A DNA stretch of 63,998 nucleotides, counting the filler, from Streblomastix strix (Eukaryota): assembly GCA_008636045.1 (NCBI GenBank). It is 4 parts of 4 records of this genome, joined end to end, with 100 filler letters (N's around TTAATTAATTAA, not from the genome) between each part and the next. Parts side by side here need not be neighbours in the genome. Positions count along the whole stretch, not along the records: positions 32,437 to 48,545 come from SNRW01000873.1; 3 more parts are not named here. One strand, 5' to 3'. Both the position numbers and the translations under genes were made by a program. Positions 17,400 to 55,796 of this stretch are shown one piece after another. The notes below the pieces were generated by a model. The model was not told the origin of the DNA and searched no databases. It was given only the letters and a program-made list of their open reading frames with translations. Position 1 is the first letter of the stretch. Each line of letters starts with the position of its first letter.

Positions 17400-18381
17400 C
17401 AAGGCCGGAGAAGTTTTGTTCAGAGAGATGTTGATGAAAACAGGACTTACTGAATAATCTGAAGACATAGTCATTGGAGCAATGAATATGGAAACATGCT
17501 GGAAGAGAAGATTGGTGATACGTTTTCAGAAAGAATATATGGATGAAAAGGTAATGAATCTGGATGAAATGAAAGAAATTGGACCTATAACGATGCTGAT
17601 AAGAATGTTGACATGGAAGAATGATAAAGATGGAACGAGATGTCTCGCAGATATGTAGAAGATAAGAACTCATGTTGGTGTGGCTTTAGGAATGTTCCAT
17701 AACAGTAATGATGTAGCAAAGTCGAGTATAGTAATTGCAGCAGTGAAAGATCTAGAGCATGCATAAAGAAGTTAATCCAAATTTAGTCAAACTTGGGATT
17801 TGGATCTGCTACTATCATACATGTTTAGAGAAGAATGGAAGTAGGATAAATAAACAACGAGCTATAATATGGCGCTATTTGTGGCATTTACAGCTGCAAG
17901 GATGACAGAACTGACAAGAATGAAGAGGAAAGATTTATAGATTGATGAATAGAAGATGATAATTTAAACTAAAATTATAAAGGGGAAGAAGATTAGAGAA
18001 TATTCAATCGAATTGAGAAGATAAGGAACACCATATTGCCCTGTTAGAGCTTTAGAAACTTGGTTATATGATGGGAATGCGTTGAAAAAAGAAGGAAGTG
18101 CGATTTGGATCAATATTGAGAAGAAGAAATGACCATTATCTCCTCAAGAATGTGGATAGATTTTGAGAAATATATTAGATGAGTTTGGTATAGAAAAGAA
18201 ACATGGTAGGGTTACTATTCGACATACAATGATGACAAATTTGAGAAGAGAAGGTGCAACACAAGAAGAATTTAATACATACACTAGAAATGTACCAGAA
18301 TCGAATGTGGTAGATGTTTTCTATATTAAGTCGGTTGGGAGAGTCCTAAGCGCCTTGTTGTTGATGATGTAGATAATCTGA
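17400..18381 (+). pseudogene. Tyrosine recombinase of second DIRS element
   Basis: TWDLDLLL, VAFTAARMTEL, YCPVRALETW, TIRHTMMT, YTRNVPESNVVDVFY; stop TGA 18379-18381; internal TGAs. Confidence 0.85.
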
Positions 18382-32436: not shown

Positions 32437-33025
32437 ACCTATAATTAGTAATATTGAAATTAAATTTAGTAAATATAATATAATAGTTGTTTATATACCA
32501 AGAAGACGAATAGGCTGTAGAGAAAACAGAAATTTTTATTTGAAATAAAAATGATTTATATTAAGGAATATTAAATTAAAATATTAATATAATGTCATAC
32601 AACAAGCATGTTTGACCGTAGAAAATTTTCATAGTCCATTGCGACTGGCAGAAAATTGATAATGAATTTTAATAATATAGGGGAGACGGGCGCTGCGCTC
32701 GTTTAAAAATCGCATTTATTTTTATTTTTTATCGGTTATATTGACATTTGTTTTTAATAAGTAGATATTAATAAATAGCGCCGTATTTTCTATATTTGGA
32801 TCCAGCAAGAATTTTTGAAAATTATTTTCTTTCTGAAATTTTAAATAAAACGATTTCATTTATGAATTATTTTAAAATTAATTAATTAATTATTGATTTC
32901 ATATATTAAAATTTAATTATAAAAAATTATTATTTTTAATTTCTATTCTTAAATTTTAAATTTTAGTTTTTCACAAATTCACTCTTTGCAAAAACATCGT
33001 TTCAAAATTTTAATAACATTTTCCA

Positions 33026-36000
33026 ATGACAAGTGCATATAACAAATCTCAATTAATTGAAGTTGGTCTACTTTTTGGAGAGGATTTACGTTATTCTACC
33101 AACAAAGTTAGGAGATGGGATTTAAATGCTTTATTGGATGAATATTAAATAGACAAACCGCATGGTTATTCAACAGATTTGAAAAACCGAGTAAAAGCGG
33201 CTGTAAAAAAGCGTAAGAAAGCGAAACAACAACGGGATTAACCTCTTGCAACGCGAAGCATTGCTAATGAATCCCTTCGGGATTCGTTTGAAAAATAAAG
33301 GTTGGAGAATGAGCAAAAGTAGGCCGCGCAACGTCGTCGGCACGAGGAGGAAGCGCGCGACAATTTTGAAAATTTACGGTATTTTGTTCAGCGTAATGAT
33401 TTTGATAATTTACAGTAACAAAGGGAATTACAGGAATATAAAAATGAATACTAGCGAAGAATATTTACAGAGGAGGCTCGAGAGAATTTATAAAATTTGC
33501 GTTAGTTTGTTCAACGAAATGATTTTGAAAATTTACAGCTACAAAGGGAATTACAGGAATATAGAGAGGAATAATAAAGAAAGGAACGAGAAGCAGATTA
33601 TAGAAATAATTTTGAAAATTTGCATTAATTTCTTTAACATGATGATTACCATAATCAATAATCTTAAAGAGAATTGTAAGAATATAACGAAGAATAATTA
33701 AGAAATGAAAGATACTAACGAATACACGATGAATTTAACAATTTATCCGATCTGGAATTACGAACATTCAAACTACTTGATGAAGAGATTGCTGAAGAAA
33801 TTCGAAAATTAGATTATAAAAATTTCAGAGAAATTGATTTTGAGGATGCTGATGCATTGATGTTAACAGAACCTTTTAACTAGGTACTGTTTAGAAGATA
33901 AATTAATAAATTTCGATAAAAATATCCGAAAGAAACTATAGAAAAAATATACTCAAAGAAGTAATCTGATAATTTTGAACCAACACGCCATTATTATAAT
34001 AATCATTTTACAAGTCAGGAGGATGTCGAAAATCATGTTAGAAGAGTTGGTTAATTAGAATTATAAATGAATAGTTTTAAAATATCTTTTGATTTTGGTT
34101 ATATTGTTGAGACAGTAAGATATGATGAAGATGGTATTCAAGAAGTAACTTACGATATAAGATATCCACATAACAATATCTTAAACGCATTAAATCCTGA
34201 ATCATTAATAGATTCTTAAGATGAATTAGAGAAATTTATTTAATATCTTCCAGCTAAGATAATTGAAAATTAAGAAAGAACTGTTGAAGATACTCATACA
34301 AGGTTTGTTGTGATTGTCTCAATGGTTGTTGTAGTATATCGTGAAAGACCTGGAGGTGCAGCACCAGCAGAATTATAAAAATATATTTAAAGATAGGAAA
34401 TGAAGTTCGTTGATAACTTGAATTATAGAAATAATTGTTTATTTGAAGCATTATCATTTATATCATTACCGGATGAATCAACAAAACGAAAATCAAACTA
34501 TAGCTGAGTTGCTGAAGGAAAACGTTTAATGAAATAATTTTATTCAGCAATTGGCAATGTATAAGTTAAGAATTTTACGGAGTTTTGTGAAAATTATCAA
34601 AGATTTGATCTTGCTTCTGAAGGTAAGTAACTTGCCAATGTGTTTAATATTAATATTTGTGTTTACGCATATCATCACTTAGATTTCGAGGACGAAAATT
34701 AAAATGATAAACCGGATCCAATTCCTTAAATCAATTCAAAAGGCAAACGAGTGCGTCGTAAAAAGGAAGATAGAGTTAAAGATGAAAAGTACGATAATTA
34801 TTTTCTTGATTTTGTAATTAAACCGGAGACCAGCGATTTGGATATTGAATTGGAAAAAGAAATTAAAGAACCAAAAGACTTTAACATCTTACTTGTTCAT
34901 TTCAGAAATAAGTTTCACATATTATATATTTCTGATACACTAGCCTTAACGGGTTTAGCATATTGCCCGATTTGTAAGTTACATGCATTGAAAGTAAACG
35001 ATATAAATGATAATTGGTAACGTGATTTAAAAAAGCATATAGAATTATGCAAATAAAACAATGGTAAGTAAGTTAAACTTTCAGGAAATTAAATACCTTT
35101 TGCGCCGTATATTATTGGAAATAAAACTTACGAATATTTCTGGTCACGTTAAGAATTATAAAAATTTAAAACAATAAAGTATTATACAACTTATGATTTT
35201 GAAACTATGGAATAATAAATTAATAAATATTTTGGGAAATCAACCAAGGAAGACGAAACGGTTCGTAATTCATTTCAGAATTCTGCTTTGGTGCCATTAT
35301 CAGTTGCATCAACAATTAAATCAAAGAATGGATTAAAATCAATTTATTTCGATGTTAGATCTAATAATTATTTAAGCGTCGCAGGTGAAAAAATATTGAC
35401 GTAAAATTTTATCCAATAATGGCTTGAAGCAATATTTGAAGAAGCTCTTTAAGTTAAATCTGATAATATGTATGATGATCCAGATGTTCCATATGATATT
35501 GCAGTTCCTACTTTAGGATTTAACTCCATACATTTCGATATGATTTTCATATTACCATATTTGACAAGCTCTAAGTGGCATATTACCAATTATCTTGGTA
35601 ACTTCTCTCATATTAAACAAGTAGGAGTTCATCACTTGATTACCGGCGTGAGAATTTAATTCTTAGACGCTGAGATGTTCGTTACAAAAATGAGACTTAA
35701 AGATGTTATCAAAGATTTTGGTAAGAAATCCAACAAAAGAAGTGATAATAAAGGAATATTCCCTTATACTGCTTTCAACACAACAAACTATGAAGAAGTT
35801 TTAAATATATCTTAACCATTTGAATAAAACTAGTTCTTTAACGAGTTAACTCAATAAAATTTATCAAATTCTGATTACTATGATTATTTGCTAGATTAAA
35901 TGATAATAATTGTTAACAAAAATGGTAAAGTAATAGATTCCATTAAGAAATTTAATAACAGATGGGATTACTTGTAATATTATAATGAACTTGACACATT

Positions 36001-38233
36001 CATCATGATAGAACCAATAGATAATCTAATTAAAATGAATTTTAATAATGATCTTGAAATGTTTAATTATTTATCTATGGCAAGCTGTGCAAATGGAACT
36101 AAGTATAAGATGTGTTGCGATGATTTAGACTTGAACTCACGATATGTTAACAAAGATGATCCAGCATTATTGTAATTTACTCCATTTGAGTTGACATAAG
36201 AACATTGGAGTAAAAAAGTTGCAAGCTATAATATGTAAGATACAAAAGCAGGACGTGATATAAAGGAAAATGTTAAAGAAGATGATTTTGAATACTTTCG
36301 AGATATAGTTTATAAAGGGTAATGCTGGTTCTGTGAAGTAAGATTCACAAATAAGAATCCACCTACATTGGATAGAATCGATAATAGTCTTGGGCATAGT
36401 AAAAGTAATGTTTAATTAGCTTGTTCATGGTGTAATGTTAAAAGAGGAAATAGAGATCCTTTCATAACTAAAGGCTTAATATAATTGAAAAGATATTACT
36501 TATCAAAAGGTTTACCAATGCCATTAACAGATGAAGAAACATATCATAAATTAAGGCCAAATATTACAGGTGGATTAGCAAATGCTTTTAATAGATATAA
36601 TGTTAAAGATGAAACTCATATTAATAAATTAAAATTTGAAGGTTAATATGTTGTAAGTTATGATCTTGATTATATAATGACTCATGTTTGTGGATATGAT
36701 TTTAATTCATTATATCCATCTGTTATGAGTGGAATTCCTCATGATTTTATTAAATACACTGGTAAAAGAATTTATATGCCAGGTTATGAATTAGATAGAA
36801 TTGAGTGTGATAGTGATTCTTAAAAAGAATTAGGTTAGATAATTATTAATAACCCATTAAGATTCTCAAATAAAAAATCTGAAATTAATAAGGTTTCTGT
36901 ATTCATTGCTGAAGTCAAAGGCCATATTGATTATAAATATATTAATGATTATATTAATTGTCCACCAATAATAAGAAAATATAAATATAAGACATTAGAA
37001 TCTGTTATTGGAGATTTTATGCATTAACATATGAAAAATAATAACTTGAAAACTGATGGTGAAGAAAATAAACTTACTGTTCTATTATCAACAATGAATA
37101 AGTATATGTGCTTCTATTCATATTATCTCTGGTTACTTATCGATGATTGCCATTTCATAATTGATGATGTTAAATGTGTTATGACATTCTCCAAGCATAT
37201 TGGATTTGAATCATTCGTTAGGAAATTCATGTAATAACGAATTTAATCAAAGATAGAAAGAAATTTTGGAGGTGAATAATTTAGTAAGATTACTATGAAT
37301 TCATCATATGGTTCTGATGGTATGAATCAAGAACATTTCTCAGATATTAAGCTATGTGATATACATGAAATATTTAGGAAACATCTCAATGGCAAATTCA
37401 AAAGTGATCGTAAATTAGGAGATAACTTATATGCTGTTGAGTTTGAATAATAAAAATTTAATTGTAAAACTTACTTATAAGTTGCATTTGCTGTATTAGA
37501 TTGTGCTAAATATTGGTTTATGACCTTCTACTATAATTTCTTAACTCCTATGGTTGATATGAATCGAGTGCATCTTATATATTGTGATACAGATTCTATG
37601 ATGTTAGCAGTTGCTGGTGATCCTAAATAAAATTATTAATAAGGATTCTCTGCTGTGATTAAGGATAAATAATTCTATGATTAAAATTTCTATAAGATTT
37701 TCCCAAAACCTAAGTCAGTAGTTACTCAAGAAAATAAGCCTTAACTAGATAAAATTGATGAAGGTAAAACAAAACTCAAAATAAAGGAATTGTAAATATA
37801 AGATGAAAAGAAACCATTGGGAGTTGCATATGAACATTGTGGTTCAACTCTTATAGCTTTAGCACAAAAGACTTATTGGTTACGATAAGAATTTGATAAG
37901 AAAGATCCAATAGTTGTTAAACTTAAAGGAATAAGTTTAAAAATGAATCCACAAATTAATAAAGAAGCTTATGGAAACAATATAAAAAATGGAATTGTTG
38001 TAAAAGGTAAGAATACTTCGTTACGATAACATTAAGAAAGAAATTCTGATGATGAAGTATTCAGTAAGATGAGTAGAATTAATACTACTATGAATGGAAT
38101 TACAGGAATTCATACAAAAATGATTGTATTAGAAAATTAATGTTGTTGCCCATATGTTGATGGAATATCTGCTGATAAATATAAAATTTAATATAAAATG
38201 TTAATGCCACCTTAAAAGCAACGAAGTTGCTGA
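33026..38233 (+). CDS. polB: Protein-primed family B DNA polymerase, ~1735 aa, with OTU-like protease, Zn finger and HNH insertion; in-frame TGA at 34505-34507
   Basis: Exo I YDFET, Exo II GFNSIHFD, KGIFPY, Exo III YNELDT, ITGGL, YDFNSLYP (36695), KITMNSSYG (37286), YCDTDS (37580), all in one frame. Confidence 0.95.
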
Positions 38234-38298
38234 ACACTTTGTGTGAATCAATGATTGAGGTATAATGTAACATAATTTATTTTTGTTTATTAAAGTTT

Positions 38299-39648
38299 AT
38301 GGCTTAACACAATTTACGCACTCGTAAGAGTAAATCATAAGCATAAATTCTTGATGAATTACTCAAAAGATTTGATAAAAACAAGAAGTAAACCGATATT
38401 GCAGAAGATTCTATGAAAATATCAATATAAACCATATTGAAATAACCTAAGAGATTAAATCTTACAGAATTTGTTGATGAAATTCAAATTCAAGATTCTG
38501 ACAATGAAATTCCGATAATTATTGAAAATGCTGATAAGATTCAATATGGTGGCAAAACTGTTTAGGATTGGTTTGATGATTATATTACAAAGGAATTGTA
38601 AAAAGGGAAGAGGAGATAAAATATTAGATTACCGCGAGCTTCGCTCGAGTCTGCTTTGCAGCCGTAAGGAAAAGCTGAGCAAACTTATTAAATCAAATTT
38701 CCATTCAAATCCAAAATAAAAGCATATGAATAAGTACATGGTGTTAAACTAGAGGATGATAAAAAATAATAAGTAGTTCCTGACTGTTAAATTAAATAAC
38801 TTCCTGAAAAATTTGGCAGACCATATTTCTCTTATGAATTTGGTTCTTGGGAGATAGATATAGTATTTTCAATGAATCCTGAGTTGGTACAGATAAATTA
38901 AATTTATTTATTCTGTATCAACATCAATACTAAATATCTTGTTGTATATCCTTTACATAGTAAATCTTAAGAAGATATTGAAAAAGCATTGTAAAATTTG
39001 GTTTAAACGTAGAACGTAACACATATCAGAGGTGATGGTGAAAAAGATTCGCAGGTAATTAACTTATGTAATTTTACAACAAGAATAGCATTAAAACTTA
39101 TTTTGTGAAAGGTTCAATTGAATTAACTAATCATAATCGTGTTGTAGATTCGGTAATAAGAACTATCAGAAATGCTTTTGGATATGATGACAGATCATTT
39201 TCAAATCCTAAGTTAATGTAATAAATGGTTGATATTTACAATGATACTCCGCACGGTGCATTTGAAAATAAATTTACACCGAAATAAGTAAATAGTTTAT
39301 AAGAACTTGAAGGATATTTCATAAGAAAGAATGATAAGAAGCTTCGTGAAGCGAAATAAGAGTAAAAAGATTAAGGATTTACTAAATATAAACCAGGAAA
39401 TGTTTTAATGATTCATGTTGATTATTTTACGTACAATGCATCGATATATGAAATAAAGAAGAAATTTCAATGAATTAGCCAAATTTATTAAATATGATAA
39501 TAGAAATGTTCAATGTTTATTATTAAAACCATTCACGGATTTGAATAGAATAACAGTTCCAATATATTATACAAAACTTATCTGTGAAAATGAATAATAA
39601 CTAAATTAGCCGTAATTTTAAAAATTTAAAGATTAATTTTTAAATTGA
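38299..39648 (+). pseudogene. Retroviral-like (rve) integrase, two frameshifts
   Basis: WEIDIVF, YLFCININTKYLVVYPL, IRGDGEK, frameshift ~39046, NHNRVVDSVIRTIR, YNDTPH..FTP; second shift ~39430-39455. Confidence 0.88.
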
Positions 39649-39740
39649 TTTAATTATATTAAACTTGTTCATCTGTGAAAAATTTATTTTCGAAAAATTC
39701 CAAATACGCAACTTCGTTGCTTAATCTTTAAGAGTATAAA

Positions 39741-40178
39741 ATGGAAAAGGAATTGGTTTAATAAATTGTACTTGAAACGTTAGCTGCTGTTAAAAAACTT
39801 CCTAAAATATAAATAAAACCTAAAATTTCGAGCGAAGCTTAGCCTCCTATAACACCCAGCGTTCAGGCGAAGCATTCAGGTTGCGAAAGCAATCTTGCAA
39901 AACAACGCGGAAGATAATATAAATATCAAACAAAGGAAGAAGCTTAATAAGTTGCTAAACAATAAAGAAAATAATGTGCAATTAAATATACTAAATAAAA
40001 ATAATATTTTAAATAGAATTAGTCAGAATCTTAATAACTTCTCATAAAAAGATTGTAAAATATGATTATAACAGATTCTGCAGAAATCAATAGAATGCAT
40101 GAAATAATAAATAAATTTGATTCAATTTTAAACAAAAATGATGATGAGGAATTAAAAAGCGAAACTGAAAATCTATGA
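39741..40178 (+). CDS. Hypothetical basic protein, 145 aa, possibly DNA-binding
   Basis: ATG-TGA in frame; RGRQYKYQTKEEA motif followed by a basic helix. Confidence 0.65.
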
Positions 40179-40224
40179 TTTAAAGCATTGATTTCGCACG
40201 GTGTTCAGCAACGAAGTTGCTTAT

Positions 40225-41192
40225 CATTTTTTAATGTGTTTCTTTTTCTTAAAATTACTTTATTCCTTTGCAGATTATAGTAATTAACTTGTTGGAATAT
40301 AATTCTTTTTTGTTTTAGGTTTCTTTTCCCCAGGTATTATTTTTGTATTTTCTTTATTGACAATTGCTGATATTGAACCATCTGCATTCATCTAATAACC
40401 AGTCTTTTGAGTTTTGAATTACTATCTGTTAAATAAATCATTAACTGGCATTCTACCCCAATCCAATGCTCCAATATCATAGATTTGTGCAAGATTTTCC
40501 TATAAAGCAAGATCTTTTTCAATTGCTTATTATTGTTTTTCTATGAGTTTCTCCTGCATTAACGGCATTGTTGGAGGTTAATCTTCAAATGATAAACTTT
40601 ATCCAAGATCTTATTAAGTTTGAATATCGTAAATATCGTCAATTTTATTGTTTTCTTTTTCTTTTTACTTCTACGACCCTGAATACATAATCTCATTATT
40701 AATTTGTTCTGGGCTTAAACCTGGTGAAGAACGTCCTAAATACATAGATGTTTAATCTAATCTAGCATTAGGATTTTAATCATATCGTTATGAATTCTCA
40801 ATAAACTTTTCAATTTTAAGTTTCCTTTCGTTATTTAACATTATTGTATTCTCAAAGAATTCTGCTCTTAATTCTTCACCAAATAATTGACCATAAACTC
40901 TTCTATTCATTGTTTTATTAGTTAAACCTAGTACACCTACTAATGCTTCATGTTTAGAAATTTCTGGATCAGCTGCATTAATTTAATCAGCAATTTATTA
41001 TTTTTATCTTGTGGACATACCTTTTTTAAGTTTGATACCTTTAGTTTTCAACATTTATGGTACTCTTTCTACATTAGAAGGATTAACTTCTTAACTGTCT
41101 ATAGTCATAGGATCTTTTATAGCCATTTCTTCTTCCCATGTTACAGGTTATACATAAGTGGGTATTAATCGTTTTTTACCTTTCTTTGACAT
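40225..41192 (-). pseudogene. Hypothetical viral protein, frameshifted
   Basis: Starts MSKKGKKRLIPT; long coding-like frames with apparent shifts. Confidence 0.55.
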
Positions 41193-41236
41193 TTTGTTTT
41201 AAACTAAATACAAATACAAATAAAGCAAATATAACA

Positions 41237-41323
41237 ATGAGCTGGGATTTATTAGTAGGAATTTCATCGTGTATATTACTCGTAGTACAGATCATTAATC
41301 TGTGCAAGCAACGAAGTTGCTGA
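41237..41323 (+). CDS. Putative 28-aa hydrophobic peptide
   Basis: MSWDLLVGISSCILLVVQIINLCKQRSC*; ends within the recurrent hairpin. Confidence 0.35.
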   Translation: MSWDLLVGISSCILLVVQIINLCKQRSC

Positions 41324-41390
41324 AGGCTTCACCTGAAGCAAAAATGATCAAAAAATGCGCAAAAAATTATTTTTCAAATATTTAAACCAA

Positions 41391-41615
41391 ATGCTTATTA
41401 CCGTTGAGGAATTTCTTGTTTACAATAATTTTTTAAGTTCATTGTTATGTGTTGCAACAAAAACAGATCCTGAAATTGAATTAAGATTTATCTTACGGCA
41501 ATATAATAAACGACTTAAAATGGAATAACTTAAGGAAATCATTAAGATTGCATAAGAAACAAGTGGATAAGAAGCTTCATTAAAACTAGTTTAACTCCTT
41601 GATTCTAAAAAATGA
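41391..41615 (+). CDS. Hypothetical protein, 74 aa
   Basis: MLITVEEFLVYNNF...LLDSKK*, in frame. Confidence 0.6.
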
Positions 41616-41721
41616 AAGCCAACGTAAAGAAGTTCAGTTTACGCCTGAACGGCCACATTCGTGGCGCCGAGCTTCGCAGGCTCTTAATCCCTTCGGGATA
41701 ATTTTTGATTGTTGTTTAAAG

Positions 41722-43203
41722 ATGACGTAACTTGGTTTATAAATTATTTGTTCTGACTCAGATACTGAATTCGTATAATGGAAAACTTCTATTCCAAGTG
41801 ACTCAAACTCGTTTCAAGTGAATTCTCTTAATAATATGCCGATTAATCTTACTTATTACCTGAATCAAGATTATCTTGAGATACATCATAACATGAAATC
41901 AACAGCAAATAAGAAATTATATGAATAAGTATCGAATCCAAATGGAACTTACAAATTAATTGAATTAACAGAAATTCCAGTAATAAAAATAAATTTTAAC
42001 ACTACAATCAATAATAGATTCACTAACGAATAGAATTATCAAGGATATTAATATGCTCCATTAATAATGGCTATTACAACCGCGTAATAAGATGAATTCG
42101 TTGATACATAAGAATAATACTTCAGAACTTCAAATACAAGTAATCGTGGTGCAATCTGTTTTAATAATGCTGTTAATGAACACACTTAGAAATTAGCTGA
42201 TGGAAAATTCTCATTGAATATTAATAATGGATAAGATATTGTATCATCCGCAATTAACTATATTAATCTGAGATTAGATTCATTTCTATATAAGTATTTT
42301 ATTTAATCCAATGGTTGTTTCTATAGATTAATTGGTATAATTCGTTTGTATTGCCCAACAGTCAATAATTTTATAACAACTATTGAACCATTCTTGACAA
42401 CAACATCAGTACATTCTGTAAAAATAAGATATTTGCATGGGAAGTAATACAATATCAATGACGATTAAACAATATAAGAAGTAATAGCTTTACCAATGAA
42501 TATTTAGGAAACTTCTATGTAATCAATCATAAACAGTATCAATACATTCCTAATAAGAATAATTTCATCATTCCTTGGTTAGAATTCTAATGACTGGGAT
42601 ATAATTTACACTGCTATTAACAGACTTTAATACTATAGTTAGTATATTCCTGATGTTTTAACTTAATTTTCATCTTTGAATTATACCAGTAACGCATAAT
42701 TGTTATGGTAACCTAAAAGAATAGTAGTATCTCCTAATTTATTCGTGTAATTAACAGGTGCATTAGATTTATATGACGGATTATCTGAGAATGGTGCAAA
42801 TTCTCTTGTTAATAATTCATCATCAGTGAAATTCATTGATTTGGAAACTTGGTACTATAAATCTTAATTTAATAATTAGAGTTTACTTTCTGATACTCCA
42901 ATTTAATGTCCCTTCATAGGAAATTTCCAGTAATATCCTCAGATGCTTATAATAAAAGTTTCAAATTAATCGTAAGGAATTACACTGTAAGGAATTGGTG
43001 GTTAAGGATTCTCTAATGTGTGTTATAAGTAAAATCTTATTGGTGCACCTGTATTAAGGGGTTAGAATATGTTATCTTAGTAATGCAATATAGGATAAAA
43101 TAAATCAGTTATATTTACATTGTATGATAATTATGGAAGAAAAATACCAAATTAATTTATGGATATGTATAATAATTTTTTGTTGGAAATACAGACTGCG
43201 TGA
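41722..43203 (+). CDS. Putative minor capsid (penton-like) protein, 493 aa
   Basis: Intact beta-rich ORF ending VIFTLYDNYGRKIPNQ...FLLEIQTA*, resembling the C-terminal motif of polinton/virophage pentons. Confidence 0.6.
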
Positions 43204-43239
43204 AACTCGTCGGCAACGAAGCGACACCAAACGTAATGA

Positions 43240-43974
43240 TAATCAAATTAGATCACAATCTTTGAATTGTATTTCTTATACTTATTCCTATTACTCAAAA
43301 TCGCTTGCGATTTAGCGACGAGCTGGCGCAGTCGCTTATTCCTATTCCTAAACTGGAATAGGTAGCGGTTGTTCTTCTTAATATTTCTTTGACTTATAAG
43401 ATTTGATTTTTGCTTTATATTTTTCGATTTACTTTACTGAATCTTGATGTTATTACTTAATGAAAGAGTTTTCAGTACGCAATCGTATTAATTCTTCTAA
43501 ATCCACTTATGGTGAGGTATAATTTAGTTACGGTTTCTTAATAATTTTCTTAGGTGTTTGTTTTTGTGTTTGCCTTGGTTAGGAGCCGGCAGGCAATATT
43601 GCTTCGCAACCTGAAGGCTCACGCCTGAATTTCATTGCTTATTCAACGATAGTTTAATCATCATCCTCGTCATAGTCATTCGTTAGTTACTCTTCTTATA
43701 TGAATTTACGATCATTTAATGATGTTTCATCTTCTTCATCTTCAATTCTCTCAATCTAACGTTTTGTTGCATGTTTTGATTGTTTTGTTTAACCTCCACC
43801 TCGTGCTTCTAATAACAATTTAGTTTACTAAGCTTATGTTAAAGTTCTCGCTGATTTCTTTCCTTCTTCATATACTTTGATCTTATCTTTAACTTACATA
43901 ATATATCCGTTACTGAAATATTCTATTGAAGTACCATTTTCCATAAGATTCTTGAGTGCTTATGCTTGATTCAT
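43240..43974 (-). CDS. Hypothetical charged protein; 3' end uncertain
   Basis: MNQAQALKNLMENGTSIEYFSNGY... with acidic and basic tracts. Confidence 0.55.
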
Positions 43975-44047
43975 CTTGATGTCTGATTTGATTTATATTT
44001 AAACTCGCAACTTTAAGTTGCAAGCAAACCAAAAGGTTTGCAAAATT

Positions 44048-44851
44048 ATGACAACAATCTAAACGAATCAGATTAGAGTTCATAAAAGCAAGCATGCGAG
44101 TGTTGTTAAGAAAGAACTTTCAGAAGAGGATAAGACGAGATTATAGGCTATTGATGACGCGACTACAAATGGTTTTAGGAAGGCGGTGTAAATTCCGTAG
44201 CTTTAAATTCCACAGAACTAGCTCTAACCTATATTTTCACATAAACTGAGCAACGTGGAGCATTGTTAACGAATTCCTTCGGAATTCGTTTCCGGTTCAT
44301 CAATCCAGACTCCTCAATAAAATAATGAATTCAATACAGATGAATAGGAGGAATTCTAAAGAGGAATATAAACCGATCGTCCACGACGTAGGGAGTATAA
44401 CATTCACAAATATAAAGAAGTTCCGCGTGAAACTGCATAAGTTGAACCAGAATAAGTTGTTAAGGATACATACTTATCTCATCCTAACTTAGAAGTATAG
44501 AAATTCATCATTGATACGATTTGGAGATGTGTTGATTCCCGTAAGAAAGGGGAAGATTTCATATTTAACTCTGATAACTATATTAAACTCTGGGTATTAA
44601 TAACCTAAGAAGAAGAGAAAGATATTGAGGTTGATATGGAAGAACCACTGATGAGATATAATAGTTGTACTTCAAAAAAATATAAGAAGAAAGAGATTGT
44701 AAGAGTTGATGATGTACTAATCAAGAATGTCTCAATTTCTAACATTGACAACGTTTTATGGAATAGTATTGAGAAACTGTATCGAGTAAATAAGGATTTC
44801 GTTAGATTATCTGATAAACTAGAATCCGACATTGGACCAGAAGATTTTTGA
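44048..44851 (+). CDS. Hypothetical protein, 267 aa
   Basis: ATG 44048 is in frame with track ORF 44636-44851, which ends in TGA. Confidence 0.65.
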
Positions 44852-44928
44852 TCAATATACCGCTATGAAATCAGTTTACTGAGTTTCACTCGGCAAGCAA
44901 CTTTGTTGTTTATTTTTGTTGAAAACCA

Positions 44929-45700
44929 ATGGAGTAAGCACAATAAATAACAAGTGATTTGGAAGATCCAACAGAAGAAGAACTAAAATAAATGATATAA
45001 GAATATGAGAAGATGAAGAAATAATAATAAGAAATAGAATCACTATAGAAGTTGTAAAAATAAATTACTTAATAAATAGAAAATGAAATAATAAAATATT
45101 TTACTTATTTTAGTTAATTTTTTAAGAAAACATCATTATCTGATTTAGTAAAATTAAAGACAGCATAAGTTATTACAGGAATCAATTCATTTACATAGCC
45201 TATCACAGCAAATTGAATCATTAAATTAGGTGGAACAAGTAATTAAATATTATTAGCTAATGGAGATACTATTAATAAGGATTAATTAGATTATGAACCC
45301 ATTGAAAATGCACGTTATTCATCAATTGCTTATGGAATGTATGAGTAACGAATATGAGGTACATTATCAACATAAAATAGTAGAGTATATATTTCTCTGT
45401 AAATAACTCACCATAATCCCGATACATTATGGTAATCAGGATATACTTTTTTCTCAATCGATGATAATGCTATAAAACCAAAATTCGGTGGAACACCAAC
45501 TAACATACCATTAAATGCTGTATTGTTTGCGTAAAAGGTATATGGTTATCCAATAGATTGGAATGGTGCAATTGTTATGGATTGCTATATTAATCTTAAT
45601 GAAAATGTTATAATAAATACAATGTGTTAGATTAATTTACCTGAAGATTTTTGTGTTTAAGTATGCGATTCATATGCTATTCATAACTAATCGGCAGATT
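44929..45700 (+). pseudogene. Fibre-like protein, disrupted
   Basis: N-terminal coiled coil, then AQVITGINSFTQPITAN*IIKLGGTSNQILLANGDT, similar to the motif in the 47317 gene; stops and frameshifts. Confidence 0.55.
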
Positions 45701-46140
45701 GATAAATAAAAATAAATTGATTAAATTGCGTTTCAATTACAATTATCATATGTTTTAAGATTCAATAACTTTAAATACAGAATGTATCTCTACATCTTTG
45801 CAAGTTCTTCGTCTTATTTTTCTATTGCTTCTTTGATGAAATCTTCTATTTATTCATTTGAATACTTGGACCAATGGAAACATCTAGCTTATTTATTTGG
45901 TTTATCCTAGTTTTCCATCTTATTTTTGTTTCTCCTCCGATAAAAGAATTAAAATATATATATAATTATATTCAATGGTACTAGAATCACATCAAAATAA
46001 CTGCATAACTACTTGATTGATGAGATTATTTATGTAAGTTATTCAGGAATTGATAATGAAATTATAGAAACTATGAAATTAACACCATAAAATATAGAAT
46101 TGATAATTATTATTAAAATATTCATTTGCATATTTGGTAA

Positions 46141-47211
46141 ATGACGTTATCCGAGATATAATCTGTAACATTTACTGATAATTCTATGTTAGATGAATAT
46201 AAAACTAAACCATCAACAAGGAATTCGTTATTATTAATCAATGGGAATCATTATATAGTTGGTGCAGTTGGTTCAGGAAAACCAACATTATTAAGCAAAC
46301 TGATAGTTATTTATAAATAAAGAATCAATCCACTCATTTTATACTTCTCCAACTTTGGTGCTGATGAGACTATGGCATTGAATTTAAACTCGAAGAATAT
46401 TGTATTATCTAATATAACTTATGAAGAAGCAATGTTTTTCTTACCAAATTTTGATGAAATCAAGTATATGGTAAAAGAAATCTATATGTACTGGAAGTTA
46501 AGAGAAGTCAACATACCTTATAAATCAGATTTCATATAACGAATGAAGGAAAGAATATTAGTAACTAATCCAATAAAAGAGATTTCTGCATCACTTCGTT
46601 CTTCGTAAGTGCCTTCGGCATAACTGAAAGAATCTTAAAAAGACTATATAAAACGAATTGCTGATTTATTTTAATATGAATGTATCGACATAATTATCAA
46701 ATACAGTGTTCCAACAAAAATAATGAGATTTACAATTCAAGCAATGATTCATAATGTATAACTCGAAAAGAAACTAAAAATCGTACCATAAAATACTTAA
46801 GCCGACGCTGAATTAAAAGTAATCAAAATTCCAATTCTATTTCATAGTTCATTATTAAATTCATTATTAATATTTGAAGACATCGGAAGTAATGCTGATA
46901 TTTAAAGATTCTCCTCAGGATTAGCTAAGACAATAACTCATTTAGTTTCTGACAGTCGACATAGCAAAAATACTGTTTTCTTTGTTGCATAACGTCCAAG
47001 TTACTTGTTCAAAACTGCAAGAATATTATCACATGTTATGTGTTTAGGAGTTAATCTATCAGAAAGTGATTTGAAACAAACGTATGAAGAAAGTTCTATT
47101 TAGAATCTTGATTTTGATGAGTTTATGTTATTGTATGGAACTCTTAATAAATATGAATTTATAATACTTAAGAAATGGTAGTGTAAATATGAAATACTAA
47201 AGAATCAGTGA
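46141..47211 (+). CDS. A32/FtsK-like genome-packaging ATPase, 356 aa
   Basis: Walker A GAVGSGKPT (46261), Walker B LLIFED (~46864), DSRHSKNTVFFVAQ and KTAR motifs. Confidence 0.85.
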
Positions 47212-47316
47212 TGTATAAATTTCGTGAGTACTTCCGTAGGAAGCGCTGACGAAGTCAGTACTCACAAAGTAAGCAAGCAACGAAGTTGATTAAATTTATT
47301 TCTGTATAACTTCCAA

Positions 47317-48545
47317 ATGACTTTGGCTAAAACCTTGAGTTAACAACAGATATAAGTAAATACGATCTTTAATATAATCAGATTTCCAATATTTGATATA
47401 ATATTCAAGGAAATCATCAAGTACATGTAGTTAATTATCGGGAAGTGAATATTAATTAACAATTGATGACTAAAACAGTTTAATATATGTACCAATAGAT
47501 AATGCTTAAAATTACGCAATGAAACTTGAAACTAATGGAGTAATGACATTGAAAAATATAAATTTATTAAATAATGATTTCTTAGCCAAAATTGCAACAT
47601 TGGAATAAGAAGTTAGTGTATTATAATAAACATTGGGAACTGCAACTTAAGATATTGGAGGATTATAATAATAAATTGATGTAATTAATGAAGAACTTAA
47701 TCGATAAACAGATTTTAGAGGATACTATTTATTAAACACAGATATATAATAATTAGAAAACTCTGCCAATGGCGATTTTGCATTCTCTGCTGAAAGTGGA
47801 ACAGTATGGATGTATGATGCGGCTTAGTATAACAGTGGAGATATAGTTCCTGATTAAGTAACTCCTGCAAGTGATGCTAATCCATTAGTTGATAGTGGAA
47901 CTGGAGTTGCAGGAACTTCAACTGAGTATTCACGAGGAGATCATTAATATCCACTATAAGTATCTACTGTATTACCAGCAAAAGATACATCAGTTGGTAC
48001 TGTTGGATAAGCAAGTACTTATGCTAGATCTGATCATTAACATCCAATTCAGACTGTAAGTACTATTCCTAATAGTGATTCTGCAGATGGATCTTATGGT
48101 ACAGTTGAATCAAACGCTAGAAATGATCATTCACATCCAATTAATGTCTAAACAAATGCTTCAATTGTACCTATAGTTAATGGAGTTGGTAACAATGGTA
48201 CTTCAGCATATTATTCAAGACATGATCATGTTCATCCATAGCAATTAACTTATGATGGAAACGTTACTGCAACTAAATTCATTAAAGCAGGAGGATCTGC
48301 TAATGAAATATTATTAGCAGATGGGACAACTAAAAATGTAGTTTTAGCTAAAAATAATTATTATGTATCAACTACAGAAAAATATATTAAATTATGTTAA
48401 TTTGTCCTTTATAATTAATCAAATAATGTTTCGGTTGAATTTTACATTAATTGTAGGTATGCTTTTGGATTATTACAATTCAATTAAAATTATATCACTG
48501 ATGGTATTGGTCAATATGATTATCATTTCGAATCTAATCAATTTT
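47317..48545 (+). CDS. Phage-tail-fibre-like protein with four (Y/N)(S/A)RxDHx(H/Y)P repeats; truncated by contig end, probable frameshift near 5' end
   Basis: Coiled coil, then YSRGDHQYP, YARSDHQHP, NARNDHSHP, YSRHDHVHP and KFIKAGGSANEILLADG. Confidence 0.75.
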
Positions 48546-49976: not shown

Positions 49977-52900
49977 TCACTTCTTTTTATCCGCCGTCTG
50001 TTTCTTTTCGTCCTTTTATTTCGGTTTAGCAGGACAGTTCTTCGCCACATGACCAACTCCGCCGCATACGAAGCAGATCCTCTGATCCTTGTATGTGCAT
50101 TCTCTGGATGTGTGTCCAGGCCTCCCACAGCGAAAACACGCATCGCGCGCTACACTGGTTGAACTATTCATGATCCCGTTTGTATCGAGTAGTAGTTGTG
50201 AGTTCCCTTCTTAATTCTGTATTGGCGATATCTATTGATCAGATGGAATATCATTAATATTACCTGAAACATTTAACTGACTATCTCCGCTAATCTGTTT
50301 ATCATCTCCTTAATTCTGAAGACCAGATCTTTTCTATGCGCCCCTCCAGCCTTGCCCACCAACAGCTATTCTTTATTTCTCAATCATTTTTTCAGCCTAA
50401 ATTCGCTCTTCAGGTGTAGTCGCTTTGGTTAATGCATGATACGGGCAGTTCGCGAATATATGCCCCATCTGTCCACAGTGATAACACCTTTCTGTGCTGA
50501 CGGCATTTGTAGCTTTGATCCGGACGCCTTATGATGTTTATGTTGGCTTTAATTTATCGAGTTATTTCTCGCTCCTTTGCTATGGATGGGTTTGTGATAG
50601 TTGGATGCTATTGTTGTTTATATTTGGTTACTGTGGGGTGTTGAATTAGCTGGAATGCAGTTATTAACGAGGTTATGTCTGTAGAAGTGGAGATTTGTTT
50701 TATTATTATTGATGAGAATGTGTTGGCACTTATCTGATTTAATGCTGTTGGAGTTATTATTATTGCTTTTACAGTGGATGCAGTAATTACTATGATTATG
50801 CAAGGTTGTTTCTCTGAAGGGATTTATTTTCTTTTATTGGCGATTTTTTGTTTTAAATATTTTGTTAGTTGAGTGAGTTTCTAATCTGCAATTATCGATC
50901 AATAATATTTGTAACACGAGGAGAATTGGCATGAGTTTAATTAAAACGTAAGGAATTTGTTTATGTTGAATTAAAATGTGGAGAATTGGTTTGAATTTGA
51001 TTAAAACGCTGAGAAATAGAATGAATTTGGTTGAAACTGGGAGAATTTACTTGAATTTGATTAACTTAACCAATATTTGTAAAGATCGGATTGCTTGGCG
51101 GCATAACTAAAGGATATTGTTGCTAATTTTACGACTGAATGTTGATTTGTTATTAATTAAATGGCTGAAGCTGAAACAGCTATTAGTTTTATGGAAACGC
51201 ACTATTTTGAATGGGAACTAATACATAATATTATTGTTGTTATTAGTCATTTGGTTAATTATTAAACATTACTTGTTGCTAATTTTATTGTTATTCTTAT
51301 TATTATTGTTTAAGCTATTATTATTACTACTACAACTACTAATTCTTTTAAAACTGAAATGACGATGAATTAAAATCTGGATAAGATTAAGAGTTAGAAT
51401 TCATCTGTAATTATCTCGAATAAGAACTATTTAAATTAGGTTAATTTGGTTAATTTGGATAATTACGAGGATTTGTCAGTTAATCAAATTAATTTAATGG
51501 TGTCAGCTGTTATTATTATGTGTATGGAAGTTCAGATACAGACAAGTTTGAATTAGATAATGACAATGAAGACAAGAATGAATTAGAATCAACTGTTTAT
51601 GAAGATGAGGTCGGTTATTGTTATAATTGTTGCTATTGCGAAAAGGATAATAATCTTGGAAGTTATTGGGCAGGTTATTCGGAGTTATTCTGTTCTGGTA
51701 AATTTGATATAGAAACTGAATTGTTGTTTTATATTTCTTTTTATTCAGGTTATGATATATCACTATTAACCTTTATGTTATTTGATTACAAATTAATTTC
51801 TTTATTTTAATTGTCTGGTTTTTGTTTTTAATCTTTTTCTTTCTCTTTATTCTTTTCTTGTTCAATATCTGATAACTTATCATTAATTAATTTATTATCT
51901 TGAATTTAAGCATCTGTTATTTTTATTGGATCTTTTGATTATTCTTCATTCTTTTCTGATTCTTATTATTTTTCTTTATCTTGTGAAACATTTGGAGAAT
52001 GATTGATATCAGAAACTGATTTATTAACTTTTGAATGATTTTATTGTCCTTCCATGTTACTTTATGATCTTTAAATTGTTTGTTAATCCTTTTATTACTA
52101 AGATGGCTATGGTTGCATTGATTATGTAGTGTCTTAATGTTTTAAGGATGGATTTGAACCTGATGATGAAGAAGAAGAAAATTCATCTTCTGTTGAAGAT
52201 GATGATGATGATGATGACAAAGCTGACTGAATAGATATTGAAGAAGGTGTTTTAGATGAAAGTTTTGATGAAGGAGTTTTAGAAGACGAGAAAGAAGATT
52301 ATCTGTCAGATATGGATTAACTTTAATTTGAAGGTGGTGGTTTATTAGTTAAATCTTTTAAATGTTCTTAATTATTTTCATTTTCTTATTGTTTTTCTTT
52401 ATTTTAAAAATCATTAGTAGAATGATTGATGTCAGAAACTGATTTATTAGGTTTTGGAGGTTTTTATTTTTCTTCCTGATTGCTTAACGATCTTTAAATT
52501 GTTTGTTAATTTCCTTGTTATTAATCAGTTTATAGCTGCATTGATTATGAAGAAGTATCTTAATGTTTTAAAGAAGAACTTGAGTTATGAGAAGAAAAAG
52601 AAGACGAAAACGATTCCTATTTTAATGATGATTATGACAAAGCAGATTAAATTGACATTTACGAAGTAGTTTTCGTAGAAGCTTTGGAAGATGACCTTGT
52701 TGAATATCCAGACGATAACATAACAGAAGATTATTACGACTAACTCTGATTGGAAGAAGATTTCTGACTCACACTCAGATCTGAATTTGAAACCTGTGAT
52801 TTTTGATTAGATGAAACAGACGCTGATTTTACAGAGCTTTATTTCGGAGAATGAATATTTGATTTGGGCGAATGAATATTTGATTTGGGCGAATGAACTT

Positions 52901-55796
52901 ACATAGGAAGCGGATGTTTGATACTGGATTGGTGCATTTGGAGTAATGAGTTTCGTGGTGATGATTATAAGTAATCGTTCGTTGGTTACAGCTGCTGTTT
53001 ATTATTGGTAGAAATGATCTGCTTTGTTTCTGGTTTATCAGAATTGGTATTGTTTTATTCTTATTATTATTATTTATCTGCTTCTTATTATTATTTACCT
53101 GGTTCTTATTAATCTATCTCTTAATTCTAGTCGGATTAATGCTGAATCATATCATGGATGGATTTGTTTGTATTCATGAGCTTTTATACATCTATTTTTC
53201 TAGCTAATGATCTTGGGAAGGTCGACATATATTGCATCTATGATTCAAGTGATTGTTTAGAATCAATATTTGTTTGTGGCTATAGCTATTGTGACTAATC
53301 ATCTGATGATTCTATTTGATCTGGACTTTTGTAAGGATCTAAGATTTATGATGGATGTTGAGGAAGTGAAAGCAAAGCGGATGCTGATAAAGGTTTTGGC
53401 AAATTCAGAATGTTTTACAGCTAAATTAATTTATTTTATTCATTTTCAAAGTTATTTATATTTTCTTTCGTTTCTTTTTCTTTTTCAACATCTTTTGATT
53501 CATCATCAGATAGATGCTGTATAATGTCATGAATTGACTTGTTGGAGTTATTAAGTTGATTATTCTCAATTTTTTTAGTTTATGGAACAATATCACTTTT
53601 ATGCGGTTATTGTTGATATTGTTTCATAGCAAATTTCCGTGATGATTTTGGAGGTAATGTTCTTGTATTGAAATTTTCAGTTTATTCTTATTTTTAGTCA
53701 CTAATTTGTTGTTCAATGTGTTTTTCCTATCCTTTTTCTTGTTCTTCAAACATTTCGTCTCTCGTTGATGACTGTTTCTGAGGAAATATTTACGAAAATG
53801 CTGATATGGGAGTACGTCGTTACTCACTTTATTTTTATTATGAATTATTATTATCCAAATTCAAAGGATCCGATCCCTAAATCTCATTCTCTTTTATTCC
53901 ATCTTTCTTATTATCTATTTCATTCATCATCTGCTTCATCATTTCAATGGATGTGTTGTACAGTTATTTCACTTGTTCTCTTATCTTCAGCGGTTTCAGT
54001 CTTTCCCTTCCTCCAGATTATGGTTTGGGAAGTGGGAGCGGATTTGGGAAAGAAATATTCTGTGTCTGTGATTGAGTTTGTGTTTATGGTTATTAATCAT
54101 CAATTTGCTTTTATTGAAGTTGGAATATTATCAGGTTCAAAAGACGGATGTTTTTGGCGTACGAGTTCATCAGCGGGTTTCTAAGGCCCAAATTCCTCAA
54201 TTTTGCTGAATTTGGGATCTCTGCGATCTTCTGTGCCACTTCAATGGCCTAATTTACATCAGTTTGTGTTAAGCTGTTCACTGAAGAATCGGTTTATGAA
54301 ACTGTGTCGTCTGAATCTGAATGAACAGATTTGGGTTTTTTTGATTGTTCGGTGCTTGATGAGGACAGATGCGATGAAAAAGAAGATTGTTACTACGATT
54401 TGTCTGAAGAAGATTATGATTTATCTGATGATTTGATTGACAGAGAATTCTGCGATTGTCTTTATGAATTATCTGGAGATGATAGTTGTAATGTTTCTTA
54501 TGAATCAGATTATGATATTATTTGTTATATTTGTATTGGAGGAGGTGGAATTGGAGGGAAATTGTATCGTGGTTTGGGAAATGGTGGATAAATGATCTGA
54601 ATCTTCTGAACTGTGACGGTTTTGTATTCTGGATCTGAAGTTTGTTGCTGCTATTCTGAAAGTTAAGTATTAAGTTGATTATTAAATTAGTTTTATTGTT
54701 ATAAATCCTGATTAGAATCAGAAGACGATGAAGATGAATATGACAACTGCGAGTTAAGCTACGATTTATTCTAATCTCCCCCACTGTTCAAAGTACTTAT
54801 AGAAATTGAAGAGTCATTTGACTTAATAGATTATAGAGACCCCGTCTATTTAGATTGTTGTGAATCATATGTTGAAAAAGAAGGCGTGTCTGAACAACCT
54901 GATATTTTGGTAGCGACTGAAGATACAGTGACGTCTGATGTATGTGTGCTGAGAGATGCTTTTGTTCTGTTTGATGAACTTTCACCTGATGACTGTTCAG
55001 ATTTGGGAGTCGTGTTCGTTTTGTCTGATTTGGATGAGTGAAGAGATTTGAAGGATTTTGTGGTTTGATCTGAATTTTCTGGCGGATCTTGTTATTCTGA
55101 CTTTTCAGATAACTGCGAGTTTTCAGTTGTGGTCGATTTCAAGGATTGATCGAGTTTTTCCAACTAAACAGAGTAGATCGATTTTTGCGAATTTTCTGAG
55201 TAATTTTGTGAGTTTTCTGAGTAAATGTGCGAATTGATTGAATTTGAATCAGATGTTGCACTGGTGCTATTCTGAGGTGATTGCTAATTTAATGAGACTA
55301 AATTAGGAGAGAAAGTTTGATTGATCTTTTAAATATCTTATTTCCGTGTTTGTTTGTTGATTAGTTAATTCAAATCAAGATTACTCAAATTGTTATTCTG
55401 ATTTACTTATCCTTATTCGATATCATTTTTCTAATTCTTATTGTTATTAATATTCATTTCAGAATAATTATCTTATTCATGTTCACTTTCTTTCAAATTA
55501 TGATATTTTTGAATTTTATTAGCTTAATCTTTGTTTAATTAATCAAAATTATCCATATTTTGATCTTTTGGTTTTTATTCATTCAATATGTTACTTGGAT
55601 GAATTTATTGAACAATTGGCAGATTTGTTTGAATTTGATCTTATTAATTTTCTATTAATTTCTTATTATTCAAGTTGTTCGTTTTTAAAGGAAATTATGA
55701 GTTATCCAATGTTCCATTAGAGTTTTAATTTTTTTAAGGATTATCTTATTGTTAATCGGTATGATTCCCATTTGTCAAATCCTTGTTCGGTTCCAT
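49977..55796 (-). CDS. Large low-complexity S/Q/N-rich protein (~1939 aa) with three C-terminal CCHC zinc knuckles
   Basis: CYHCGQMGHIFANC, CFRCGRPGHTSREC, CFVCGGVGHVAKNC; ATG 55796 and TGA 49979-49977 are in the same frame; full continuity only spot-checked. Confidence 0.7.

What the first reader, a model, noticed from the sequence alone, without database searches (positions are those of the whole stretch)
32437..48545. Polinton-like virus written in the TAA/TAG=Gln code
Seen: a compact, intronless ~16 kb cluster with pPolB, rve integrase, A32-like ATPase, a penton-like ORF, two fibre-like genes and several unknown ORFs. These ORFs read through many TAA/TAG codons and end in TGA. Known: pPolB + integrase + ATPase + capsids define Polintons/Mavericks. 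Inference: this is a virus lineage long adapted to a host with a reassigned code, invisible to standard-code ORF callers and possibly undescribed. Scattered frameshifts suggest an integrated, recently decayed copy. No double jelly-roll major capsid or adenain-type protease was recognised before the contig ends.
Basis: partly seen in the sequence, partly recalled or inferred. Interest (0 to 1): 0.92.

Follow-up and report, generated by a model that had tools for sequence, protein, structure and literature searches.

The report
Recoded Maverick virus, hairpin-studded, already reported
This is a broken, incomplete copy of a virus-like Maverick/Polinton element whose genes use TAA and TAG for glutamine like its likely host, the termite-gut protist Streblomastix; such elements were reported in 2023, but this copy is also studded with tiny DNA hairpins that related copies often lack and that likely spread on their own.

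Summary
The 16.1-kb stretch is one whole contig with a protein-primed polymerase (TP-vOTU-Exo-HNH-palm motifs), a DDD integrase, an A32-type ATPase, a possible penton and two fibre-like genes. All read TAA/TAG as Gln. Close relatives (82-90% identical) are annotated as Streblomastix strix proteins. The headline is not new: Bellas et al. 2023 reported 820 major-capsid hits in S. strix and said these elements use the host's code (Metamonada group). A complete standard-code relative (L021) has AGTAGT ends, long inverted repeats, a 6-bp duplication and a double jelly-roll capsid gene. That capsid gene is absent here and probably lies beyond the contig end. This copy is decayed: three in-frame TGA stops, three frame breaks and an altered Walker A motif. 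Two extras. (1) Ten C-GNA-G mini-hairpins occur where 0.2 are expected, with none in 48 kb of neighbouring host contigs. Eight of ten lie in short segments that sibling contigs skip or replace, in frame when inside genes, like mitochondrial GC clusters; my searches found no report of this. (2) An HNH insertion in pPolB, published as unique to oomycete and nematode Polintons, is also present across this group.

The parts
32671..32695 (+). Candidate left terminus (weak lead). It resembles the AGTAGTATAGGG.GACGGG start of relatives and lies 355 bp before pPolB.
   Evidence: best + strand match in the window to the L005 terminus, but 24 of 60 whole-window shuffles score as high
33026..38233 (+). 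[quoted passage not shown] Broken by an in-frame TGA at 34505-34507.
   Evidence: (sibling P0002 is continuous across the break)
36323..36440 (+). HNH/endonuclease-VII-like domain (CxxC...LDRID...CxxCN) inserted between ExoIII and palm motif A
   Evidence: PHROG endonuclease VII 1.1e-12; motifs in 20 of 20 long standard-code relatives
38299..39650 (+). Integrase of the retroviral/DDD type (third acidic residue Asp, shared with relatives); frame breaks near 39045 and 39415
   Evidence: one-base indel at 39045 in sibling contigs of all 4 runs
39741..40178 (+). Unknown basic protein
   Evidence: no family or relative found
40224..41192 (-). Unknown protein with Lys-rich ends
41355..41615 (+). Small conserved ORF, 67% identical to the N-terminus of S. 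strix P0018
41722..43203 (+). 493-aa protein, possible minor capsid (penton)
   Evidence: 13 S. strix homologs. Distant homolog P0159 (E 9.7e-4; hhalign 94%), whose Atlas lead is Sputnik V18/19 minor capsid at 0.87, below the 0.9 bar. Own model unusable (pLDDT 29).
43243..43974 (-). Unknown protein
43979..44851 (+). Unknown protein; carries an in-frame hairpin segment near 44258-44340
44929..45702 (+). Fibre-like gene 1 (coiled-coil start; motif shared with gene 2); in-frame TGA at 45214 and 45355
   Evidence: repeat D5; no family hit
45733..46131 (-). Unknown small protein
46141..47211 (+). A32-type packaging ATPase (Walker A, Walker B, RH and Q motifs); Walker A reads GKP in this copy; about 90-aa insertion relative to standard-code relatives
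47317..48545 (+). Fibre-like gene 2 with repeated RxDHxHP units; frame break near 47358; cut by the contig end
   Evidence: no family hit
33269..47258 (.). Ten C-GNA-G mini-hairpins with perfect stems of 5 bp or more, at 33269, 38217, 38635, 39708, 40207, 41307, 41687, 44268, 47231 and 47246. Four share the GCAAC-GAA-GTTGC core and a fifth shorter copy lies at 47276. 47222-47266 folds as a T-shaped double hairpin.

Best explanation
This contig holds the polymerase, integrase, ATPase and other genes of a decayed and likely integrated copy of a multicopy Metamonada-group Maverick/Polinton, most likely of Streblomastix strix, written in the TAA/TAG=Gln code, with the capsid gene probably cut off by the contig end. 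Predicted mechanism of intact copies, by analogy with known Polintons: the integrase inserts and excises the element at inverted-repeat ends with a 6-bp duplication. The pPolB polypeptide primes replication through its terminal-protein domain, which the vOTU domain would cut free. The ATPase would package DNA into a double jelly-roll capsid with penton and fibres. Having no translation genes, the element depends on host tRNAs and release factor, so its Gln codons drifted to the AT-rich TAA, which likely confines it to hosts with this code. This copy could not replicate by itself, since polymerase, integrase and both fibre-like genes are broken. The GC-rich C-GNA-G hairpins are shown to be enriched and to lie in segments that vary between copies. 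They are inferred to be selfish micro-insertions, copied between sites and copies by recombination or template switching when replication exposes single strands.
For: Code and genes. Host: 12 of 14 pPolB hits and 13 of 13 ORF7 hits are named S. strix. Multicopy: thousands of 85-99% alike contig pieces over all 30 bins in 4 gut-type runs from 3 studies. Group: 50 metagenome loci carry the same polymerase type at 26-42% identity. Several also carry a 540-aa protein whose family includes T. vaginalis TVAGG3_0055640 and whose low-confidence model hits double jelly-roll capsids (E 6e-5). L021 is complete, with AGTAGT ends, a roughly 190-bp TIR and a 6-bp TSD. Prior report. Hairpins: 10 observed against 0.21 in shuffles, 0 of 200 shuffles reach it, 0 in the other three contigs. 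8 of 10 lie within sibling-skipped segments, 0 of 200000 class-matched placements do as well, and 3 of 3 measurable skips wholly inside genes are multiples of 3.
Against: No capsid gene in the contig: a 77-sequence MCP profile gives nothing better than E 0.42 in the window. No TIR pair or TSD. No S. strix contig linking this polymerase clade to an MCP was obtained. The tree is quick and unrooted, with no named Polinton references. The independent test of Gln identity is modest: Q is the consensus at only 3 of 19 conserved columns opposite TAA/TAG, against 13 of about 680 columns overall, and K is commoner at 4. The strong Q match to S. strix proteins is partly circular. Some lesions could be assembly errors, as Bellas et al. 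warn. The skip list is only the 16 short joints displayed of about 250, and the best-covering run may be the source sample.
Confidence: 0.85

Rival explanations
1. A capsid-less or non-autonomous derivative: this polymerase lineage lost the major capsid gene and moves only as a self-synthesising transposon, or borrows capsids from other S. strix elements.
For: No MCP in 16 kb, already longer than the complete 14.3-kb relative L021. ORF7 siblings sit next to a different polymerase in annotated fusion proteins P0018, P0021, P0024 and P0027, so modules are shuffled.
Against: The contig ends inside a gene. ATPase and probable penton/fibre genes are kept. In L021 the MCP lies between the ATPase and a 466-aa gene of possible fibre type. 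The genome has 820 MCP hits.
Confidence: 0.1
2. A free (non-integrated) virus or linear episome from the same sample, or a mosaic of several copies produced by amplification and assembly.
For: The element fills the whole contig with no proven host flank. No laid contig spans it. Bellas et al. show that stops in such elements can be assembly artefacts.
Against: At least seven lesions in different genes, with siblings intact at some of them. The siblings are annotated in the host assembly at many divergence levels. Relatives are integrated with a TSD.
Confidence: 0.07
3. The hairpins are functional signals (transcript 3'-end or termination marks, as recalled for giant viruses and virophages) rather than selfish insertions.
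For: 6 of 10 lie between genes, and another overlaps the pPolB stop. The same core recurs at successive gene boundaries.
Against: Sibling contigs lack or replace them at 8 of 10 sites. They also sit inside coding sequence, here and as hairpin-encoded peptides in sibling polymerases P0002 and P0004. Standard-code relatives show only 7 in 437 kb. Orientation is mixed.
Confidence: 0.2

Closest known systems
Streblomastix strix endogenous viral elements, 'Metamonada group' of Bellas et al. 2023 (PMC10120064; passages and supplement rows read)
   Same: Same likely host and same TAA/TAG=Gln code. Relatives with this polymerase carry an MCP about 33% identical to a T. vaginalis protein, as the paper's S. 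strix MCPs are about 32% identical to T. vaginalis hits.
   Different: The passages I read define the group by MCP only. This contig lacks the MCP, so it is placed through polymerase, integrase and ATPase. I saw no description there of gene order, the HNH insertion or hairpins.
Trichomonas vaginalis Mavericks (TvMav; PMC12289875 passages) and trichomonad 'Polintons' left ungrouped in bioRxiv 10.64898/2026.06.19.733378 (passages)
   Same: pPolB, integrase, ATPase, divergent capsid module; 10-28 kb; very high copy number.
   Different: Reassigned genetic code. No T. vaginalis polymerase was retrieved for direct comparison.
pPolB2 Polintons of nematodes and oomycetes (Jeong et al. 2023, bioRxiv 10.1101/2023.08.22.554363; passages, section 8, supplement search of PMC10748475)
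   Same: HNH endonuclease domain inside pPolB; Metamonada Polintons are all pPolB2 in their table.
   Different: They call the HNH unique to oomycete and nematode pPolB2. Here it is in the S. strix clade and in 20 of 20 long relatives. Same insertion site and homology to their domain were not tested. Streblomastix does not occur in their supplement.
TP-vOTU-Exo-palm polymerases of polintons (Krupovic et al. 2024, PMC11161782; passages)
   Same: Cys and His motifs of the vOTU type upstream of ExoI, conserved in relatives.
   Different: The TP fold was not modelled here.
Palindromic GC clusters of yeast mitochondrial DNA (Wu and Hao 2015, PMC4478555; passages) and fungal double-hairpin elements (recalled; search listing only)
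   Same: Short GC-rich palindromes in AT-rich DNA, with presence/absence polymorphism and merged units.
   Different: Here they lie in a nuclear virus-like element, have 3-nt GNA loops closed by C:G (a very stable DNA loop, PMC3201870 passages) and shorter stems; no target-site rule was established.

Membership tests
Maverick/Polinton | [quoted passage not shown] | tested here: met
   (PF03175 on 4 homologs)
Maverick/Polinton | Retroviral-type integrase | tested here: met
   D, D, D motifs shared with relatives; transposase 1e-4; no Pfam rve or PDB hit
Maverick/Polinton | A32-like packaging ATPase | tested here: met
   Pox_A32 on relative L005
Maverick/Polinton | Double jelly-roll major capsid protein | tested here: inconclusive
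   Absent from the contig, which is truncated; present in standard-code relatives
Maverick/Polinton | Minor capsid protein (penton) | tested here: inconclusive
   ORF 41722-43203: indirect lead only; own fold failed
Maverick/Polinton | Terminal inverted repeats starting AG and 6-bp target duplication | tested here: inconclusive
   No TIR pair in the contig; weak left-end candidate; met in relative L021
Polintoviricetes-type (animal) Polintons | Adenain-type maturation protease | tested here: inconclusive
   None recognised in the truncated contig, nor among the 7 larger ORFs of L021 scanned with Pfam; its small ORFs were not scanned
Metamonada group (Bellas 2023) | MCP clustering with the T. 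vaginalis MCP | tested here: inconclusive
   No MCP in this copy; shown for relatives with the same polymerase type
Metamonada group, S. strix elements | TAA/TAG read as Gln, TGA as sole stop | tested here: met
   independent alignment test modest
Virophage or Tlr1/TVpol-type PLV | Loss of the exonuclease and a helicase-polymerase fusion | tested here: not met
   ExoI-III intact and no helicase seen
Mobile palindromic elements (GC-cluster-like) | Presence/absence polymorphism among homologous loci | tested here: met
   (from displayed joints only)
Mobile palindromic elements (GC-cluster-like) | Defined insertion site or target duplication; proof of movement | not testable with these tools
   No sibling DNA or host genome was available

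The most novel reading that the evidence does not exclude
Streblomastix Mavericks carry their own layer of parasites. These are 13-45-bp C-GNA-G DNA hairpins that copy themselves between sites and between hundreds of element copies, land in frame inside polymerase and other genes, and avoid the host DNA sampled here. They would be a viral counterpart of mitochondrial GC clusters, perhaps spread by the polymerase's HNH domain or by template switching during protein-primed replication.
Probability: 0.45. Interest if true: 0.62.

Novelty: new member of a known kind. Interest (0 to 1): 0.36.

Why it matters
The recoded Polinton-like virus itself is in print, so the main finding is confirmatory. 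It still adds replication-gene evidence that these elements radiated inside a recoded host, for a group that a 2026 framework preprint leaves unplaced. It also shows why standard-code surveys miss them. If the hairpins are mobile, they give a countable case of palindromic micro-elements confined to a nuclear DNA virus, which would tie their spread to the virus's own replication. The HNH domain across this group weakens one published argument for oomycete-to-nematode transfer of pPolB2, if the domains prove homologous.

Tried and rejected
No host genome was held, so no copy census, TIR or TSD for S. strix copies. Pfam gave no significant hit for any of 14 window ORFs. PDB sequence searches found nothing useful for pPolB, ATPase or integrase. 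IMG/VR: no relative with the single protein, and only HNH-domain matches with the alignment (78 loci). A metagenome scan with the ATPase confirmed 0 of 91 stretches. Loci L051-L075 were HNH-only matches and were dropped; L001-L050 were analysed. The ORF7 model (pLDDT 29) gave no fold match, and ORF7 matched none of the relatives' protein clusters. The MCP model was also low confidence (pLDDT 38). Fibre 2 has no similarity to the relatives' 914-aa protein. The Atlas gave no usable hit for the L021 367-aa protein. No Rfam match. No RNA holder listed, which is no evidence on expression. The left-terminus match is not significant window-wide. A hairpin peptide signature scan was uninformative overall: 4 hits in 22,065 aa, 3 of them in P0002, against 2 in 43,299 control aa. 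The ORFs 45218-45673(-) and 45083-46144(+) were rejected as shadows of fibre 1, and the 41344 start of ORF7 as spurious. Searches for a prior report of such hairpins in Polintons found none: plus 'hairpin' absent from two 2026 preprints. 'Streblomastix' with 'polinton' returned only Bellas 2023. bioRxiv supplements and the Figshare data of Bellas et al. were not seen and may hold more on these elements.
Full report
Layout. The window is four contigs joined by N spacers, and the finding is the whole third contig, 32437-48545. Table 11 yields 2 short ORFs in it, while table 6 yields a compact gene set. A codon-bias scan and frame-by-frame reading fixed the gene calls. The first two ORFs are one frame, 33026-38233, interrupted by a TGA at 34505; sibling P0002 runs through that point. 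Other lesions are integrase frame breaks near 39045 and 39415, two in-frame TGA in fibre-like gene 1, a frame break near 47358 and GKP in the ATPase Walker A motif. Sibling contigs show one-base indels at 39045 and 47358. No introns are needed to read the genes.

Genetic code. TAA/TAG make up 83 of 109 Gln codons in pPolB and, for example, 199 of 335 in a host ORF of contig 4. A TGA-free frame of 1241 codons has a chance near 1e-12. Close S. strix siblings have Q opposite 26 of 29, 31 of 39, 21 of 25 and 25 of 33 TAA/TAG codons, but those records were themselves probably translated with table 6. The independent test is weaker. In 20 standard-code relatives Q is the consensus at 3 of 19 conserved columns opposite TAA/TAG (two of them invariant), against 13 of about 680 columns overall, and K is the consensus at 4. 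In the unnamed homolog P0010, Q is the commonest opposite residue (8 of 35); in P0012 it is second (6 of 53).

Host and copy number. 12 of 14 pPolB hits and 13 of 13 ORF7 hits are named Streblomastix strix, the best at 80-90% identity. The host is therefore most likely this oxymonad or a close relative. Contigs from 4 runs (3 studies) cover all 30 bins with thousands of pieces, mostly 85-99% alike. The best of these runs may be the source sample.

Gene identities. pPolB aligns with relatives at Cys and His motifs of the vOTU type (the Cys region is missing in 3 of 20 truncated rows), at ExoI-III, at an HNH-type domain and at palm motifs A-C. PHROGs gives DNA polymerase 5.9e-13 and endonuclease VII 1.1e-12. 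The TP-vOTU reading follows Krupovic et al. (PMC11161782, passages); the TP fold was not tested. The integrase is hit by a profile of 7 relatives and shows D, D and a third Asp shared by all rows that cover it. The ATPase matches a 19-member family (4.9e-10), one member of which hits Pox_A32. ORF7 has one distant homolog, P0159, for which the Atlas lists a Sputnik V18/19 minor-capsid cluster at 0.87, a lead only. The fibre labels rest on pattern and on my recall of such proteins; no library supports them.

Relatives. An alignment-based metagenome scan returned 75 loci, 50 with substantial polymerase matches at 26-42% identity. Their long ORFs are open in the standard code. Thirteen ORFs form a family of about 540 aa that retrieves 85 proteins, including T. 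vaginalis TVAGG3_0055640 at 33%. Its low-confidence model ranks double jelly-roll capsids first (iridovirus and PBCV-1 at E 6e-5, Sputnik at 1e-3). L021 is a complete element of about 14.3 kb with AGTAGT ends, a roughly 190-bp TIR and a CATATG duplication, in the order pPolB ... MCP ... ATPase ... integrase. A profile of 77 such MCPs finds nothing in the window. In a quick unrooted tree of 35 polymerases, the window and 10 named S. strix proteins form one clade (98% SH-aLRT) with three deep branches. This fits a long radiation inside the recoded host. The careful search did not finish, and no named Polinton outgroup was included.

Prior art. Bellas et al. 2023 (PMC10120064; passages and supplement rows) place S. 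strix MCPs in a Metamonada group with T. vaginalis. [quoted passage not shown] A 2026 preprint (10.64898/2026.06.19.733378, passages) still leaves Metamonada Maverick-Polintons ungrouped.

Hairpins. The repeat search showed AGCAACGAAGTTGCT recurring at gene boundaries. Perfect stems of 5 bp or more closed by C-GNA-G number 10 in this contig against 0.21 in dinucleotide shuffles (0 of 200 reach it). There are none in the other three contigs and 7 in 437 kb of standard-code relatives. One search displayed 16 short joints out of about 250. Eight of the 10 hairpins lie inside segments that sibling contigs skip or replace. Placements matched for coding versus non-coding position reach this in 0 of 200000 trials, and the coding subset (3 of 4) in 62 of 200000. 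All three skips wholly within genes whose replacement length is known remove 42, 33 and 45 bases, multiples of three. Conversely, a sibling has an extra hairpin at 46123, and sibling polymerases P0002 and P0004 carry in-frame inserts whose peptides match hairpin translations. The region 47222-47266 folds as a T-shaped double hairpin. d(GNA) loops with a C:G closing pair are unusually stable in DNA (PMC3201870, passages). The nearest precedent I found is the mobile palindromic GC cluster of yeast mitochondria (PMC4478555, passages). Because one stem sequence recurs at five sites, copying from a common source is more likely than independent fold-back. The mechanism of spread is inferred, not shown. 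The comparison with host DNA rests on only 48 kb.

HNH. Jeong et al. (bioRxiv 10.1101/2023.08.22.554363, section 8) call the pPolB2 HNH a synapomorphy of oomycete and nematode Polintons. The same kind of domain is in this element and in 20 of 20 long relatives. Whether it is the same insertion was not tested.

Verdict. The element is real and correctly read, and is a decayed partial member of a published group. Interest is modest and rests mainly on the hairpin polymorphism.

Noticed in passing
window 43714-48545 versus 33026-41000: Summed contig depth is several- to more than tenfold higher over the ATPase/fibre half than over pPolB in runs X1 and X3, and less so in X2 and X4. ORF7 siblings are fused in annotation to a different polymerase (P0018, P0021, P0024, P0027). 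This hints that one structural module pairs with several replication modules. Depth is not a copy number.
   Followed up: partly
window 33347-33704: Three 123-bp direct repeats (41-aa Gln/Glu-rich units) in the N-terminal region of pPolB.
   Followed up: no
window 39066-39200 and relatives L001, L003, L004, L021, L028, L031: The third catalytic position of the integrase is Asp (NHNxxxDxxxxTxRxAxG) in all rows that cover it, so DDD rather than DDE.
   Followed up: partly
window 1-1233 (minus strand): A sequence resembling the relatives' AGTAGT terminus at 1233(-) precedes a Gln-rich ORF running off contig 1. It might be another element's end, but no protein match was found.
   Followed up: partly
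window 17428-18132; 2615-4597: Tyrosine-recombinase-like ORF (Phage_integrase E 6e-4) in a GC-richer block, and degraded ORFs in contig 1 that look by eye like a retroelement: probable DIRS-type retrotransposons.
   Followed up: no
window 49977-55796 (-): 1939-aa Gln/Ser-rich ORF ending in CCHC zinc knuckles.
   Followed up: no
L021:8222-22526: A complete 14.3-kb standard-code Metamonada-type Maverick with TIRs, 6-bp TSD and MCP, useful as a reference for this unplaced group. L017 and L018 are a further low-GC lineage in which no MCP of this family was detected.
   Followed up: partly
L005, L006, L007, L035: L006, L007 and L035 each carry two C-GNA-G hairpins (adjacent in L006 and L007), while the closely related L005 has none, so the phenomenon may occur sparsely outside S. 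strix.
   Followed up: no
P0005, P0014: Two S. strix sibling polymerases carry a large extra insertion of several hundred residues within the vOTU region; identity not examined.
   Followed up: no
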